This document shows, one piece after another, positions 49,182-55,025 of a stretch of 64,000 nucleotides of DNA. The number at the start of each line of letters is the position of its first letter. The first letter of the stretch is position 1. The position numbers and the translations under genes are program-made. The notes beneath the pieces were generated by a model. That model was not told where the DNA came from. It ran no database searches and saw only the letters and a list, made by a program, of their open reading frames with translations. Origin of the DNA: Escherichia coli (GTDB lineage: Bacteria; Pseudomonadota; Gammaproteobacteria; Enterobacterales; Enterobacteriaceae); assembly GCF_003790525.1 (NCBI RefSeq), contig NZ_CP033635.1. The stretch is one strand, 5' to 3'.

Positions 49182-49257
49182 GTCCCTTTAGCTCAGTGGT
49201 GAGAGCGAGCGACTCATAATCGCCAGGTCGCTGGTTCAAATCCAGCAAGGGCCACCA
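49182..49257 (+). tRNA. tRNA with CAU anticodon (Ile2/Met-type, ileZ-like)
   Basis: cloverleaf folds by eye: D stem GCTC/GAGC, anticodon loop CTCATAA, T loop TTCAAAT, CCA encoded; one mismatch at pair 2-71. Confidence 0.8.
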
Positions 49258-49258
49258 A

Positions 49259-49335
49259 CCGCCACTAGCTCATCAGGAGAGAGCATCAGCCTTCTAAGCT
49301 GACTGTGCGGGGTTCGAGTCCCCGGTGGCGGTCCA
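49259..49335 (+). tRNA. tRNA-Arg (UCU)
   Basis: cloverleaf folds by eye: D stem GCTC/GAGC, anticodon stem TCAGC/GCTGA, loop CTTCTAA, T stem CGGGG/CCCCG, CCA encoded. Confidence 0.85.
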
Positions 49336-49750: not shown

Positions 49751-50023
49751 ATGAGAATGGACGAACGATACAGTAACGCTGCATACGGCAGCGCAGGACT
49801 TGTTGCGTTCTTTGCCAGCCTGTCACTGCAGGATTGGGGATTTATTATCGGCGTGGCGTTCAGTATCATTCTTGGTGTTCTTACTTATCGCCTTAACAAA
49901 CGGGAGCAGGAAAAACGAACCCGCATATTGCTCGAAATTCTGGAACGAACTAATGCCGGTAATGTTCCGGCTACGGCACATGCTGTGGCTGAGATTGCGA
50001 AAAAGGCACCAAAAGAAATATGA
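49751..50023 (+). CDS. holin (two-TM, pinholin-like) with dual-start motif
   Basis: 90 aa; MRM dual start, two hydrophobic helices, charged C-terminus; RBS ggaggtgaggg. Confidence 0.7.
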   Translation: MRMDERYSNAAYGSAGLVAFFASLSLQDWGFIIGVAFSIILGVLTYRLNKREQEKRTRILLEILERTNAGNVPATAHAVAEIAKKAPKEI

Positions 50024-50179: not shown

Positions 50180-50557
50180 TTACGGGCCTGTGGGATCAGG
50201 TTGTTTTTTGTCTGATTCCAGAGGGAAGGGACGCTGTTTCGGTTCTCTGAACTTTAGTGATAATGAATTGAAAATCCTCATTTTTTGCTGCCATGCATAA
50301 TGTCTGTCCCATGAACAGGGGGGGCTCAATTCTTCATTCACCCATGCGTTAATATCTTGTTTCAGGTGTTGAAGCATATGGGGTGTTAATGCACTCATAA
50401 TAATATCCAGCGTTTTATGCGAGAGTTTACCGTAAGGGTCTGCAAGGATGCTGCTCGTTGCTTCGTTATTATCCACCATAAGTGGAAGTAGCGCTGATTT
50501 AACTTTTTCTGTCATTAGTTGCAAAAATCTACTGCGCAAATTTTCTTTACTGTTCAT
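50180..50557 (-). CDS. hypothetical protein encoded antisense inside the lysis cassette
   Basis: 125 aa hydrophilic ORF with gagg RBS; lies between 11-bp direct repeats at 50087 and 50607. Confidence 0.45.
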   Translation of the reverse strand: MNSKENLRSRFLQLMTEKVKSALLPLMVDNNEATSSILADPYGKLSHKTLDIIMSALTPHMLQHLKQDINAWVNEELSPPCSWDRHYAWQQKMRIFNSLSLKFREPKQRPFPLESDKKQPDPTGP

Positions 50558-50680: not shown

Positions 50681-51214
50681 ATGAACGCAAAAATCAGATA
50701 CGGCCTGTCGGCTGCCGTTCTGGCGCTGATTGGTGCTGGCGCATCTGCTCCTCAGATACTTGATCAGTTTCTGGACGAAAAAGAGGGTAACCACACAACG
50801 GCATACCGCGATGGTTCTGGCATATGGACCATCTGCCGCGGTGCCACGGTGGTGGATGGAAAACACGTTTTTCCCGGAATGAAGCTGTCGAAGGAAAAAT
50901 GCGCTCAGGTTAATGCCATTGAGCGTGATAAGGCGCTGGCATGGGTGGAGCGCAATATTAAAGTTCCACTGACCGAAGCACAGAAAGCGGGTATTGCGTC
51001 ATTCTGTCCCTATAACATTGGCCCCGGTAAGTGTTTCCCGTCGACGTTTTATAAGCGGCTTAATGCCGGTGATCGAAAAGGCGCCTGCGAGGCGATTCGC
51101 TGGTGGATAAAGGATGGTGGGCGCGATTGCCGCATACGTTCAAATAACTGCTATGGACAGGTTATTCGTCGTGACCAGGAAAGCGCATTAGCCTGTTGGG
51201 GGATAGATCAGTGA
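50681..51214 (+). CDS. SAR-type endolysin (phage lysozyme)
   Basis: 177 aa; N-terminal signal-anchor-release-like segment [15 protein letters not shown] followed by lysozyme-like catalytic region; precedes Rz/Rz1. Confidence 0.8.
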
Positions 51215-51678
51215 GCAGAGTCGCCGCGATTATTTATGCTCTGGTTATCTGCATCATCGTCTGCCTGTCGTTGGCGGTCAATCATTACCGTGATAACGCC
51301 ATAGCCTACAAAGAACAGCGTGATAAAAAAGTCAGTGAACTGAAGCAGGCGACCGCCACCATTACTGACATGCAGCAGCGTCAGCGTGATGTTGCTGCGC
51401 TCGATGCAAAGTACTCGAGAGAATTAGCCAATGCGAAAGCTGAAAATGAAACTCTGCGCGCTGATGTTGCCGCTGGCCGTAAGCGCCTGCGGGTCAATGC
51501 CAGTTGCTCCGAAGCCGTGCGTGAAGCCACCGGACCCACCAGCGTGGATAATGCAACCAGCCCCCGACTGGCAGACACCGCTGAACGGGATTATTTCACC
51601 CTCAGAGAACGGTTGATGACGATGCAGAAGCAACTGGAAGGGGCACAGGAGTATATCCGCACTCAGTGCATTAAGTAG
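51211..51678 (+). CDS. i-spanin Rz
   Basis: GTGA overlap with endolysin stop; N-terminal TM helix, coiled-coil periplasmic domain. Confidence 0.8.
51431..51616 (+). CDS. o-spanin Rz1 (lipoprotein embedded in Rz, +1 frame)
   Basis: [22 protein letters not shown] lipobox and Pro-rich [28 protein letters not shown], very similar to lambda Rz1. Confidence 0.8.
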
Positions 51679-51701
51679 CCTTTTTGTTATCAGGAGAATG
51701 T

Positions 51702-51971
51702 ATGAAGAAATTACTGGTAACCGCAAAGCTCTTTAATGGAAGAATCCCGTTCCGGATTTTACAGCGTGGTCGTGTTCTGGCTGAAGGTACATTCAGTGGT
51801 AAATGCACGGAATGTTATTCACGAATATATGAAGTGGATGCCACGGATGAAGATATAATCGTTGAGTGTAATGCCGGGATTGTATCGGCCACATTGCTTC
51901 ATGGGCGAATTGAGTTGTCGCTGGAGGATGCGGCAAATGAATTACCAACTGGCAAAACTTTATCGCGGTAA
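51702..51971 (+). CDS. hypothetical phage protein
   Basis: start MKKLLVTAK with RBS aggaga; overlaps next ORF in another frame. Confidence 0.45.
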   Translation: MKKLLVTAKLFNGRIPFRILQRGRVLAEGTFSGKCTECYSRIYEVDATDEDIIVECNAGIVSATLLHGRIELSLEDAANELPTGKTLSR

Positions 51972-52137
51972 ACATTTCGCAGGGTATGGGATTGCAGTTA
52001 ATGGTGAGTTACTGGAGGGGCAGCTTTCCGCCAGGACAGAGTCACGCGGAGGCGAGCCACCAACAGTCACTGTGACTTTCAGACTGACAGCAGAACATAT
52101 CGAGAATCAGCCCGTCATTCAACTGAACAGGGTGTGA
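51937..52137 (+). CDS. hypothetical phage protein
   Basis: start MNYQLAKLY with RBS ggagga; reading frame is open upstream to 51862. Confidence 0.4.
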   Translation: MNYQLAKLYRGKHFAGYGIAVNGELLEGQLSARTESRGGEPPTVTVTFRLTAEHIENQPVIQLNRV

Positions 52138-52144
52138 GGTATTT

Positions 52145-52231
52145 ATGCCATCACGAATCCCACGTGCCTGCCGTAAGCGTGGATGCGCAGGTACAATCAC
52201 AGACAGTTCTGGTTACTGCGATAAACATCGT
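52145..52231 (+). pseudogene. HNH endonuclease, N-terminal remnant
   Basis: MPSRIPRACRKRGCAGTITDSSGYCDKHR matches the characteristic start of phage HNH endonucleases; downstream sequence is unrelated AT-rich DNA. Confidence 0.45.
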
Positions 52232-52313
52232 GTGCGACCGTGGTTGCTCGGTATCTTTGTCTCTCTTGGTAACTTATTTGTTCGAACCGGTTTACAACTT
52301 ACAGGATATAAAC

Positions 52314-52763
52314 ATGCAAGAAGAAGCAAATAAAATTCTTGTTGATTTATTGACGAAGGCCAGCGATGGAATTGATTCCGCCATTGCATTCAGTCAGGCT
52401 CAGATTCCGGATGTTGTTCATCAGTTGCTGGTATGGAATATGGTTGATAGCCTGATTAAAACATTAATAGCCATTTCAACAATCCCTCTGGTTTTCTGGT
52501 TTATGAAGAAGCAGTGCCAAAGAGTTGAGACAGGTAAAATCGGTGATGAAGGATATTCATGGGAGAAGGGAAATCCCAAATACAGGCCGACAATGGTTTG
52601 GGATAGCAAAGGTGATATTAATCTTCTTATCGTGCCATTGGTTGGAGTTTTGACTATGTGGGGGATTTTTATTATTTGTGCAGTAACCAATATGACATGG
52701 TTAAAAATCTGGCTGGCACCTAAGTTATATCTAATCGAATACGCAGCATCACTAATTAAATAG
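52314..52763 (+). CDS. membrane protein of unknown function (AT-rich moron)
   Basis: start MQEEANKIL with agga RBS; two predicted TM helices; hairpin terminator just downstream. Confidence 0.55.
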   Translation: MQEEANKILVDLLTKASDGIDSAIAFSQAQIPDVVHQLLVWNMVDSLIKTLIAISTIPLVFWFMKKQCQRVETGKIGDEGYSWEKGNPKYRPTMVWDSKGDINLLIVPLVGVLTMWGIFIICAVTNMTWLKIWLAPKLYLIEYAASLIK

Positions 52764-53194: not shown

Positions 53195-53521
53195 ATGAAA
53201 AGACGCCTTTCACTACTTTTTCTGTTATCTGCCCTGGCAGTGGGATGCTCGCAGCAAAAAGCTGATGAGCCCCGGCAATTAGTGACGGTGTATCCACGAT
53301 ATCCGGAATATGCTGCAGCAAATTATATCAAGGGGCTGGTTGAGGTTAAGTTCGATATTGGTGCTGACGGGACTGTGACACGGATCGTTTTTCTCCGCTC
53401 AGAGCCTCATAATTTGTTTCGTGATGAAGTGGTGAAGGCCATGGCGAAATGGAGATTTGAAAAGAATAGTCCCCGTCAGGGAGTGAAGAGACAATTTATC
53501 TTTACGCCATCACGTCCCTGA
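53195..53521 (+). CDS. lipoprotein consisting of a TonB C-terminal-like domain
   Basis: start MKRRLSLLFLLSALAVGCSQQ (lipobox LAVGC); region YPRYPEYAAANYIKGLVEVKFDIGADGTVTRIVFL...FRDEVVKAMAKWRFE aligns with host TonB C-terminus [32 protein letters not shown]...[15 protein letters not shown] in this window. Confidence 0.7.
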   Translation: MKRRLSLLFLLSALAVGCSQQKADEPRQLVTVYPRYPEYAAANYIKGLVEVKFDIGADGTVTRIVFLRSEPHNLFRDEVVKAMAKWRFEKNSPRQGVKRQFIFTPSRP

Positions 53522-54476: not shown

Positions 54477-55025
54477 ATGGAAGTCAACAAAAAGCAGCTG
54501 GCTGACATTTTCGGTGCGAGTATCCGTACCATTCAGAACTGGCAGGAGCAGGGAATGCCCGTTCTGCGAGGCGGTGGGAAGGGTAATGAGGTGCTTTATG
54601 ACTCTGCCGCCGTCATAAAATGGTATGCCGAAAGGGATGCTGAAATTGAGAACGAAAAGCTGCGCCGGGAGGTTGAAGAACTGCGGCAGGCCAGCGAGAC
54701 AGATCTGCAGCCCGGTACGATTGATTACGAACGCTACCGTCTCACAAAAGCACAGGCAGATGCGCAGGAACTGAAAAATGCTCGTGAAGAAGGGCTGGTT
54801 CTTGAAACGGAATTATTTACCTACATTTTTCAGCGAGTTGCGCAGAATATATCCGGGATCCTTGTTCGTGTTCCGCAGACACTGCAGCGTAAATACCCTG
54901 ATATATCACCAGCACATCTTGATGCTGTGAAAACTGAAATCGCGAAAGCATCCGATGTGGCTTCTGAATCAGGTGAGAATGTGTGGAGGTGGATTGATGA
55001 TTTCAGACGAGCTGAGGGCGGCTAA
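54477..55025 (+). CDS. nu1: terminase small subunit
   Basis: [42 protein letters not shown] matches lambda Nu1 N-terminus. Confidence 0.92.

What the first reader, a model, noticed from the sequence alone, without database searches (positions are those of the whole stretch)
51684..52137. Two small overlapping ORFs after Rz may be one frameshifted gene
ORF 51702..51971 and the next ORF (open from 51862, probable start 51937) overlap by 35-110 nt in different frames, both with RBS-like sequences. This could be a pair of small translationally coupled genes or a single roughly 150-aa gene with a frameshift.
Basis: seen in the sequence. Interest (0 to 1): 0.3.

Follow-up and report, generated by a model that had tools for sequence, protein, structure and literature searches.

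The report
Two separate small prophage genes
The two overlapping reading frames after the phage lysis gene Rz are two independent small phage genes of unknown function, not one broken gene; the overlap probably comes from a lost stop codon plus a one-base change in the spacer between them, so the finding is ordinary.

Summary
ORF1 (51702-51971, 89 aa) and ORF2 (51937-52137, 66 aa) overlap by 35 nt, ORF2 lies in the +1 frame, and each has its own Shine-Dalgarno sequence. The "one frameshifted gene" reading is not supported.

- **Separate families.** ORF1 matches part of phrog_2571 and ORF2 matches all of phrog_10235. Each occurs alone in many phages: ORF1 is typically 74 aa right after Rz in Stx phages, and ORF2 starts its protein in almost every homolog, 66 aa or longer. 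None of the 212 homologous proteins fetched carries both domains.
- **Variable junction.** Loci with both genes show a 25 or 29 nt gap, a 4-nt ATGA overlap, or a 35-nt overlap. The frame relation differs between these forms, and both genes stay intact in their conserved parts.
- **Origin of the overlap.** All indels lie in the 31-nt spacer. Strain GF60 carries almost the same prophage and differs there by one extra A, which gives the ATGA form. In 68-aa alleles, codon 69 (CGA here) is TGA, at the family's usual end.
- **Tail.** AlphaFold gives residues 69-89 pLDDT below 50.
- **Selection and reality.** Median pairwise dN/dS is about 0.24 for ORF1 and 0.22 for ORF2. The allele is identical in 14 complete-genome records, so it is not a sequencing error.

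The function of both proteins remains unknown.

The parts
51211..51678 (+). Rz (i-spanin) gene, the upstream neighbour. Rz1 is embedded at 51431-51616 in the +1 frame.
   Evidence: Pfam Phage_lysis E=2.1e-50. RefSeq calls it 'lysis protein' and calls the embedded ORF 'Rz1 family lipoprotein' in related loci. ORF list.
51692..51696 (+). Shine-Dalgarno sequence AGGAG of ORF1, 5 nt before ATG 51702
   Evidence: Read from the sequence. Conserved in all window-like alleles.
51702..51971 (+). ORF1, 89 aa in this allele. It is a small all-beta protein related to the central domain of phrog_2571. The conserved core is codons 1-68 (51702-51905).
   Evidence: phrog_2571 E=6.3e-24, profile positions 100-182 of 291. 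57 homologs, with a typical length of 74 aa. RefSeq WP_032304101.1. AlphaFold pLDDT is 76-92 per 10-residue block for residues 1-68. Median dN/dS is 0.24.
51906..51908 (+). Codon 69 of ORF1. It is CGA here, TGA (stop, giving a 68-aa protein) in L009, L011, L017, L023 and L109, and GGA in L010. This is the probable site of stop-codon loss.
   Evidence: Alignments. The TGA lies where stand-alone family members end (alignment A3).
51909..51936 (+). Former intergenic spacer, now read as the ORF1 tail. It holds ORF2's Shine-Dalgarno GGAGGA (51923-51928) and the indel hotspot at 51930-51932. GF60 has an extra A after 51931.
   Evidence: All 4 indel columns and 3 SNP columns among 7 close alleles fall in 51906-51936. 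That is 21.9 variable columns per 100, against 3.9 in the ORF1 core and 6.0 in ORF2. GF60 comparison. In L014 the GGAGGAT..GCAAATG element sits after an unrelated upstream sequence.
51937..52137 (+). ORF2, 66 aa, a full-length member of phrog_10235. It is identical to RefSeq WP_072262440.1 but is not annotated in genomes that carry this allele.
   Evidence: phrog_10235 E=6.4e-29, profile positions 4-66 of 67. 134 profile hits across Enterobacterales; the conserved block begins at or within a few residues of the N-terminus in every sequence read except likely upstream over-calls such as P0078 and P0082. It is 66 aa in 20 of the 21 viral-contig loci found with ORF2, L008-L028. AlphaFold mean pLDDT 83. 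Median dN/dS 0.22. Identity to the GF60 protein.
51937..51971 (+). The 35-nt overlap. In ORF2's frame it encodes MNYQLAKLYRGK, the most conserved part of that family. In ORF1's frame it encodes the tail NELPTGKTLSR, which is absent from alleles that stop at or before ORF2's start and from all stand-alone ORF1 relatives.
   Evidence: Invariant ORF2 columns M1 Q4 A6 K7 L8 Y9 R10. No counterpart of the tail in alignment A3. pLDDT below 50 for ORF1 residues 69-89.
52145..52246 (+). 5' remnant of the HNH endonuclease gene, the downstream neighbour. It begins 7 nt after ORF2's stop.
   Evidence: RefSeq pseudogene 'HNH endonuclease, missing C-terminus' in the identical locus. phrog_144 E=1e-7 for residues 1-33. 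Intact 116-aa HNH genes in L002 and L003.

Best explanation
The region holds two independent small genes in the late operon of a lambdoid E. coli prophage, inserted between Rz and an HNH endonuclease gene. Each is translated from its own Shine-Dalgarno sequence and ATG. ORF1 is a beta-sandwich mini-protein of about 68 aa, related to the central domain of the 286-aa phrog_2571 protein. ORF2 is a 66-aa beta-rich protein of phrog_10235. The 35-nt overlap is a recent by-product with no sign of function. ORF1's original stop (TGA at codon 69, 51906-51908) has become CGA, so ORF1 reads on through the old spacer, which contains ORF2's ribosome-binding site. In the sister allele (strain GF60 and 10 other complete genomes) this read-through ends at the TGA of an ATGA stop/start overlap, giving a 79-aa ORF1. 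In the window allele one A fewer after 51931 shifts ORF1's tail into another frame, so it ends at TAA 51969-51971, inside ORF2. The 21 added residues are not conserved and are predicted to be disordered. What is shown: two separate families, no fusion anywhere, a variable junction, and purifying selection on both genes. What is inferred: the direction of change (stop loss rather than stop gain), that ORF2 starts mainly from its own ribosome-binding site, and that both are accessory late genes. Their biochemical function is unknown.
For: Each gene occurs alone.
- A 74-aa ORF1 homolog follows Rz with no ORF2 in Stx1a phage 11KH263 and in 73 of the loci analysed.
- 28 phage records, mostly Stx2c, Stx2a and Stx1a phages and H-19B, carry an ORF1 homolog.
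- ORF2 homologs occur without ORF1 in L006, L007, L014-L016, L018-L022 and L024-L028, in Klebsiella phage KpF5 and in Yersinia phage P840.

No fusion exists.
- Cross-searching each family's profile against 91 ORF1-family and 121 ORF2-family proteins gave only noise, with bit scores below 3.
- A profile-profile comparison of the two families found no relation.
- The 286-aa relative of ORF1 has no similarity to ORF2.

The junction varies while both genes stay intact.
- Four states occur: overlap 35 nt (ORF1 of 89 or 88 aa), overlap 4 nt (79 aa), and gaps of 29 or 25 nt (68 aa). The frame difference is 1 or 2.
- Among 29 complete E. coli genomes the match lengths are 171 nt in 14, 172 nt in 11 and 168 nt in 4. 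None is 170 or 173 nt, the lengths that would fuse the frames.
- RefSeq annotates two genes in every non-window allele examined.

Other points.
- GF60 differs from the window at 3 of 801 positions, and one of these is the extra A after 51931.
- All indels fall in the spacer.
- ORF2's ribosome-binding site travels with ORF2 into an unrelated upstream context in L014.
- ORF1 residues 1-68 fold with confidence and residues 69-89 have pLDDT below 50.
- Family C-termini lie 2-4 residues after the SATLL motif.
- Median dN/dS is 0.24 and 0.22.
- No -1 slippery heptamer was found, and the only homopolymer run is AAAA at 51954.
Against: - There is no expression evidence (RNA, ribosome profiling or peptides) for either gene.
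- The direction of change at codon 69 is inferred, not proven. CGA, TGA and GGA are spread across allele backgrounds, which implies recurrent mutation or recombination.
- RefSeq does not annotate ORF2 in the 14 records with this allele. That could be read as doubt about ORF2, but the identical protein is annotated in GF60 and JNEC-KY180.
- The dN/dS values come from non-independent sequence pairs.
Confidence: 0.9

Rival explanations
1. One ancestral gene of about 145 aa was split by a frameshift mutation or a sequencing error, so ORF1 and ORF2 are the two halves of a pseudogene.
For: The two ORFs are adjacent, on the same strand and overlapping in different frames. Frame-changing indels do occur at the junction.
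Against: No intact fused homolog exists in 5.8 billion clustered or 1.84 billion representative proteins searched. Each half occurs alone as a complete gene with its own start and ribosome-binding site. ORF2's N-terminus MxxQxAKLYR begins the protein in almost all homologs read. None of the 29 complete genomes has a junction length that would fuse the frames. The allele is identical in 14 independent records, which rules out a read error. Both halves remain under purifying selection.
Confidence: 0.02
2. A programmed +1 ribosomal frameshift in the overlap produces an ORF1-ORF2 fusion protein alongside ORF1, as in prfB or, by a -1 shift, the phage tail chaperone G/GT.
For: ORF2 lies in the +1 frame and that frame is open for 110 nt before ORF1's stop. 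A rare CGG codon precedes the TAA stop.
Against: No slippery motif was found. The frame relation is not conserved: it is +2 in the ATGA alleles and in the 29-nt-gap alleles, and in all gap alleles ORF1 stops before ORF2's start. The region that would have to carry the signal is the most variable and most indel-prone part of the locus. RNA folding of 51870-51990 is no more stable than shuffled sequence (z=-1.08). ORF2 has its own strong ribosome-binding site and start, and these work in contexts without ORF1.
Confidence: 0.01
3. Only ORF2 is a working gene. ORF1 is a decaying fragment of the longer phrog_2571 gene, and its variable 3' end reflects the absence of selection.
For: ORF1 aligns only with residues 101-169 of the 286-aa PhiR46_1 protein. 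Its C-terminus varies between 68, 79, 88 and 89 aa, its stop codon is polymorphic, and its start is GTG in L010 and L011.
Against: Median dN/dS is 0.24 over codons 1-56. There are no indels in the 204-nt core among the close alleles. Stand-alone forms of 69-81 aa are the commonest in the 44 clusters found across 1.84 billion representatives, and the 280-aa long form is a single cluster. The core folds with confidence. The ribosome-binding site and N-terminus MKKLLVT are conserved.
Confidence: 0.07

Closest known systems
phrog_10235 (PHROGs v4, unknown function), for example RefSeq WP_072262440.1, WP_001109099.1 and Klebsiella phage KpF5 WMM91436.1
   Same: ORF2 matches the whole 67-position profile (E=6e-29). 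It is identical to WP_072262440.1. It sits in the same genomic slot, between the lysis genes and the HNH/terminase module.
   Different: No real difference. Here its first 35 nt are also read by ORF1's extended tail, and RefSeq does not annotate it in genomes with this allele. Some relatives (103-112 aa) carry a C-terminal extension that is absent here.
phrog_2571 (unknown function): the 286-aa protein of Escherichia phage PhiR46_1 (XSB42772.1) and the 74-aa ORF after Rz in Stx-converting phages (H-19B, Stx1a_11KH263, Stx2c phages)
   Same: The ORF1 core is 46% identical to residues 101-169 of the 286-aa protein and 64-82% identical to the 74-aa Stx-phage ORFs in the same position directly after Rz.
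   Different: ORF1 covers only profile positions 100-182 of 291. It lacks the N- and C-terminal regions of the long form. Its last 21 residues (69-89) have no counterpart in stand-alone family members.
ATGA-type translationally coupled gene pairs (a stop/start overlap of 4 nt, common in phage late operons; established general knowledge)
   Same: Sister alleles (GF60, 2014C-3075 and others) have exactly this arrangement: ORF1 ends at the TGA of ATGA. ORF2's ribosome-binding site lies inside ORF1's coding sequence.
   Different: In the window ORF1 stops 35 nt past ORF2's start, so termination-reinitiation coupling is less likely. Alleles with a 25-29 nt gap also exist. Coupling was not measured.
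Rz/Rz1 embedded gene pair immediately upstream
   Same: Two genes in different frames share DNA on the same strand within the same operon.
   Different: Rz1 lies wholly inside Rz and the arrangement is conserved and functional (established knowledge for lambda). The ORF1/ORF2 overlap is short, not conserved, and encodes a dispensable tail in one of the two frames.

Membership tests
Single gene disrupted by a frameshift (pseudogene) | An intact homolog exists in which both parts are joined in one reading frame | tested here: not met
   No protein carries both domains among 212 family members from searches of 5.8 billion and 1.84 billion sequences. None of the 29 complete genomes has a junction length of 170 or 173 nt.
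Single gene disrupted by a frameshift (pseudogene) | The two parts always occur together and lack their own translation starts | tested here: not met
   ORF1 occurs alone in 73 loci and ORF2 alone in 15. Each has its own ribosome-binding site and ATG.
Programmed ribosomal frameshift gene | A conserved slippery site and a conserved frame relation between the two ORFs | tested here: not met
   No heptamer and no conserved shift site. The frame difference is 1 or 2 and some alleles have a gap. The junction is the most variable segment.
Programmed ribosomal frameshift gene | A fusion protein is made in vivo | not testable with these tools
   Needs mass spectrometry, ribosome profiling or reporter fusions.
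phrog_10235 (ORF2) | Significant full-length match to the family profile | tested here: met
   E=6.4e-29, protein residues 1-63 against profile positions 4-66 of 67. Invariant motif QxAKLYR...GYGIAV is present.
phrog_2571 (ORF1) | Significant match to the family profile | tested here: met
   E=6.3e-24. 46% identity to the PhiR46_1 member.
phrog_2571 (ORF1) | Full-length architecture of about 286 aa | tested here: not met
   Only profile positions 100-182 of 291 are covered. ORF1 is a single-domain short form, as are most relatives.
Translationally coupled overlapping gene pair | The upstream stop overlaps or abuts the downstream start, and the downstream ribosome-binding site lies inside the upstream gene | tested here: inconclusive
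   The ribosome-binding site inside ORF1 is met. The ATGA overlap is met in 11 of 29 sister genomes but not in the window, where the stop lies 35 nt downstream. Coupling itself cannot be tested here.

The most novel reading that the evidence does not exclude
The stop-codon polymorphism (TGA, CGA or GGA at codon 69) and the indels in the 31-nt spacer could act as a natural switch between three modes of ORF2 translation: independent (25-29 nt gap), ATGA-coupled, and occluded by ORF1 ribosomes (35-nt overlap). This would tune the dose of an accessory protein encoded just upstream of the HNH/terminase packaging module. Beyond that, the short ORF1 form could act on the full-length phrog_2571 protein of other phages, for example as a competing isolated domain.
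Probability: 0.08. Interest if true: 0.3.

Novelty: already known. Interest (0 to 1): 0.08.

Why it matters
It matters little. The result settles an annotation question: this is two genes, not a frameshifted one. It also shows that RefSeq leaves out a real, conserved 66-aa gene in every genome that carries the 35-nt-overlap allele. It is a clear small example of how losing a stop codon and a single-base indel in a spacer can create an overlap that looks like a frameshifted gene. Both proteins belong to phage families of unknown function in the accessory-gene slot between the lysis and packaging genes. Any biological interest lies in what they do, and these data do not show that.

Tried and rejected
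- **Domain and family searches.** Pfam, NCBIfam and PADLOC gave no hit for either ORF.
- **Solved structures.** Profile searches of PDB sequences returned nothing at E up to 10.
- **Paralogy.** I considered that ORF1 and ORF2 might be distant paralogs, because both start with similar beta-hairpins and an AKL[FY]xG motif. Profile-profile comparison gave 1% probability, so I dropped the idea.
- **ORF2 as part of the long form.** I tested whether ORF2 matches the C-terminal part of the 286-aa phrog_2571 protein. It does not.
- **RNA structure.** A hairpin can pair ORF2's ribosome-binding site with upstream sequence, but the fold is no more stable than shuffled sequence (z=-1.08), so I make no claim from it.
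- **Signals.** No promoter or terminator signal lies between Rz and the HNH remnant.
- **Metagenome scan.** A junction pattern returned only 3 contigs, one for each of three alleles already seen.
- **Literature.** A search for the protein accessions and phrog ids found nothing.
- **Alternative ORF2 starts.** The upstream in-frame ATGs (51871, 51901, 51928) are rejected. They do not stay in frame across the spacer alleles, and the family N-terminus begins at 51937.

Full report
**Context.** The window around the finding is the late region of a lambdoid E. coli prophage.
- It carries two tRNA genes at 49182-49335 and a holin-like ORF at 49751-50023. The holin assignment rests on weak Pfam holin matches below Pfam's curated cut-offs.
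- Next come a lysozyme gene at 50681-51214 (Pfam Phage_lysozyme), and Rz at 51211-51678 (Phage_lysis, E=2e-50) with Rz1 embedded at 51431-51616.
- The two ORFs of the finding follow.
- After them lie a 5' remnant of an HNH endonuclease gene (52145-52246), a phrog_3054 ORF (52314-52763), and a TonB_C-domain ORF.
- A lambda-type Nu1 small terminase gene starts at 54477.
- No promoter-like or terminator-like signal separates Rz, ORF1, ORF2 and the HNH remnant. They therefore most likely sit on one late transcript (inference).

**Observation.**
- ORF1 runs from ATG 51702 to TAA 51969-51971 (89 aa), with AGGAG 5 nt upstream.
- ORF2's frame is open from just after TAA 51856-51858.
- Its conserved start is ATG 51937, preceded by GGAGGA at 51923-51928, and it ends at TGA 52135-52137 (66 aa).
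- The overlap is 35 nt and ORF2 is in the +1 frame relative to ORF1.

**Two families, each found alone.**
- ORF1 matches phrog_2571 and ORF2 matches the whole of phrog_10235.
- A search of 5.8 billion clustered proteins found 57 relatives of ORF1, with a typical length of 74 aa.
- The longer entries are read-throughs into unrelated frames or over-called N-termini. None contains ORF2 sequence.
- In Stx-converting phages (H-19B, Stx1a_11KH263, many Stx2c phages) a 74-aa homolog sits directly after Rz and nothing like ORF2 follows.
- Of the loci analysed, 73 carry ORF1 without ORF2.
- ORF2 relatives number 134 in a profile search across Escherichia, Citrobacter, Klebsiella, Enterobacter, Serratia, Salmonella, Rahnella and Pantoea. 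They are 66-112 aa long.
- In all sequences read, the conserved block MxxQxAKLYR...GYGIAV begins at or within a few residues of the N-terminus, apart from likely upstream over-calls such as P0078 and P0082.
- ORF2 occurs without any ORF1 homolog in L006, L007, L014-L016, L018-L022 and L024-L028, in Klebsiella phage KpF5 and in a Yersinia phage.
- In L014 the homology to the window begins only about 15 nt before the ATG, at the element CAGGAGGATGCAAATG. ORF2's ribosome-binding site therefore belongs to the ORF2 module and not to ORF1.
- Several phages (Evi, phi467, vB_EcoM-606R7, PhiR49_2) go from Rz almost directly to the HNH gene. The ORF1-ORF2 segment is thus an optional insert.

**No fusion anywhere.**
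- Searching the ORF2 profile against 91 ORF1-family proteins, and the ORF1 profile against 121 ORF2-family proteins, gave only noise with bit scores below 3.
- These sets include the 44 clusters found by an exhaustive HMMER scan of 1.84 billion representatives.
- Profile-profile comparison finds no relationship between the two families.
- ORF1 does have a long relative, a 286-aa protein of phage PhiR46_1 in which ORF1 aligns with residues 101-169 at 46% identity. That protein has no similarity to ORF2.

**The junction varies while the genes do not.** In loci that carry both genes I found four arrangements:

| ORF1 length | Junction | Examples |
|---|---|---|
| 68 aa, ending at TGA in codon 69 | 29-nt or 25-nt gap before ORF2 | L009, L011; L017, L023, L109 |
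| 79 aa, ending at the TGA of ATGA | 4-nt overlap | L002, L010, L013, L111, GF60 and seven other genomes examined |
| 88 aa | 35-nt overlap, short spacer | GB089 type |
| 89 aa | 35-nt overlap | the window |

- The frame offset between the genes is 1 in some alleles and 2 in others.
- ORF2 keeps the same ATG start in every allele. It is 66 aa in most, apart from 3' truncations to 52 or 62 aa in a few strains.
- Among 5,426 complete E. coli genomes, 29 have both genes. The match length is 171 nt (window allele) in 14 records, 172 nt in 11 and 168 nt in 4. None has 170 or 173 nt, the lengths that would fuse the frames.
- RefSeq annotates two separate genes in every non-window allele examined.
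- Among seven closely related alleles, all four indel columns and three SNP columns lie in the 31 nt between codon 69 and ORF2's ATG. That is 21.9 variable columns per 100.
- The ORF1 core (204 nt) and ORF2 (201 nt) have no indels and 3.9 and 6.0 variable columns per 100. This is how a spacer behaves, not the coding sequence of a single gene.

**How the overlap arose.**
- Strain GF60 carries the same prophage background. It has an identical lysozyme and Rz, the same HNH remnant and the same downstream genes.
- It differs from the window at only 3 of 801 positions, and one of these is an extra A after 51931.
- With that A, ORF1 ends at ATGA. Without it, ORF1's tail shifts frame and runs to TAA 51969-51971. 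The 35-nt overlap is therefore one single-base indel away from a classic coupled pair.
- Further back, codon 69 is TGA in the most divergent ORF1 lineage linked to ORF2 (L017, L023, L109) and in L009 and L011. It is CGA in the window and several others, and GGA in L010.
- The TGA lies where stand-alone family members end, 2-4 residues after the SA[TEA]L motif.
- AlphaFold folds residues 1-68 with block-mean pLDDT of 76-92 and gives residues 69-89 pLDDT below 50.
- I infer that TGA was the original stop and that its loss extended ORF1 through the spacer. I hold this direction at about 0.6, because the three codon states are mixed across backgrounds, which implies recurrent mutation or recombination.

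**Selection.**
- Median pairwise dN/dS by the Nei-Gojobori method is 0.24 for ORF1 codons 1-56 (21 unique sequences) and 0.22 for ORF2 codons 1-63 (15 unique sequences). The pairs are not independent, so these are indicative values.
- Within the overlap, the ORF2 frame encodes the family's most conserved residues.
- The ORF1 frame there encodes a tail that is missing from alleles ending at or before ORF2's start and from all stand-alone relatives.

**Frameshifting.**
- ORF1 contains no X_XXY_YYZ heptamer, and the only homopolymer run near the overlap is AAAA at 51954.
- RNA folding of 51870-51990 is no more stable than shuffled sequence (z=-1.08).
- Because the frame relation differs among alleles, no conserved recoding signal can exist.

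**Function.**
- Nothing specific emerged. There are no Pfam, NCBIfam or PADLOC hits and no PDB sequence relatives.
- A literature search for the accessions found nothing.
- My best guess, from position alone, is that both are late-expressed accessory genes in the variable slot between the lysis and packaging modules. ORF2 usually lies a short way upstream of the HNH/terminase genes: directly before the HNH gene in the E. coli loci and KpF5, and a few genes upstream in L006 and L007.

**Verdict.**
The single frameshifted gene reading is refuted.
- The arrangement is ordinary and both proteins are already catalogued as hypothetical proteins: WP_032304101.1 for ORF1, and WP_072262440.1, identical to ORF2.
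- The one practical point is that RefSeq omits ORF2 in the 14 records with this allele.

Noticed in passing
window 51937-52137: RefSeq (PGAP) does not annotate ORF2 in any of the 14 complete-genome records with the window's 35-nt-overlap allele. It does annotate the identical protein (WP_072262440.1) in GF60 and JNEC-KY180, where the overlap is only ATGA. This looks like a systematic annotation gap caused by the overlap.
   Followed up: yes
window 52145-52260: The HNH endonuclease gene is only a 5' remnant of about 31-34 codons. Homology to loci with an intact HNH gene ends near 52237, and homology to phage PhiR46_1, upstream of its phrog_3054 gene, starts near 52258. This is a mosaic junction that joins a lysis/HNH-type right arm to a lambda-type Nu1/A packaging module.
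   Followed up: partly
window 51702-51905; L112 1701-2561: The ORF1 family is the isolated central domain (residues 101-169) of a 286-aa phrog_2571 protein found at the same position after Rz in phage PhiR46_1. The short stand-alone form (69-81 aa) is the commoner one. The whole family has only 44 clusters at 50% identity among 1.84 billion representatives.
   Followed up: partly
window 51906-51908: Codon 69 of ORF1 is CGA, TGA or GGA among otherwise near-identical alleles (L013 against L009; L010 against L011). This points to repeated change, or recombination, at this one position.
   Followed up: partly
L115 (strain C311) 599-757; L116-L119 599-787: ORF2 is shortened at its 3' end to 52 aa in strain C311 and to 62 aa (ending ...NQPSFN) in SCU-116, MS20673, AH19K002 and Eco_23-2678. 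The last residues of ORF2 therefore seem dispensable, or these copies are decaying.
   Followed up: no
L010 2265 and L011 1027: ORF1's start codon is GTG instead of ATG in two IMG/VR prophage contigs, and the ribosome-binding site is unchanged.
   Followed up: no
L028 2501-2836; proteins P0094, P0120, P0134, P0149, P0174: Many ORF2 relatives in Klebsiella, Enterobacter and Citrobacter are 98-112 aa. They carry an added C-terminal segment, for example ...AIKKAAAEGAKRGYR..., that is absent from the E. coli 66-aa form.
   Followed up: no
window 49182-49335: Two adjacent tRNA genes lie upstream of the lysis cassette. ARAGORN calls them tRNA-Met (CAT) and tRNA-Arg (TCT). RefSeq calls the first tRNA-Ile, which suggests a lysidine-modified CAT anticodon.
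   Followed up: partly
window 53195-53521: A small ORF with a TonB C-terminal domain (Pfam TonB_C, E=2.6e-13; RefSeq 'TonB family protein') lies inside the prophage between the lysis and terminase genes. Its N-terminus looks like a lipoprotein signal (…LSALAVGCSQ).
   Followed up: no
window 50180-50557 (minus strand): A 125-aa minus-strand ORF lies between the holin-like ORF and the lysozyme gene. RefSeq marks part of it as an incomplete pseudogene. It has no Pfam hit.
   Followed up: no
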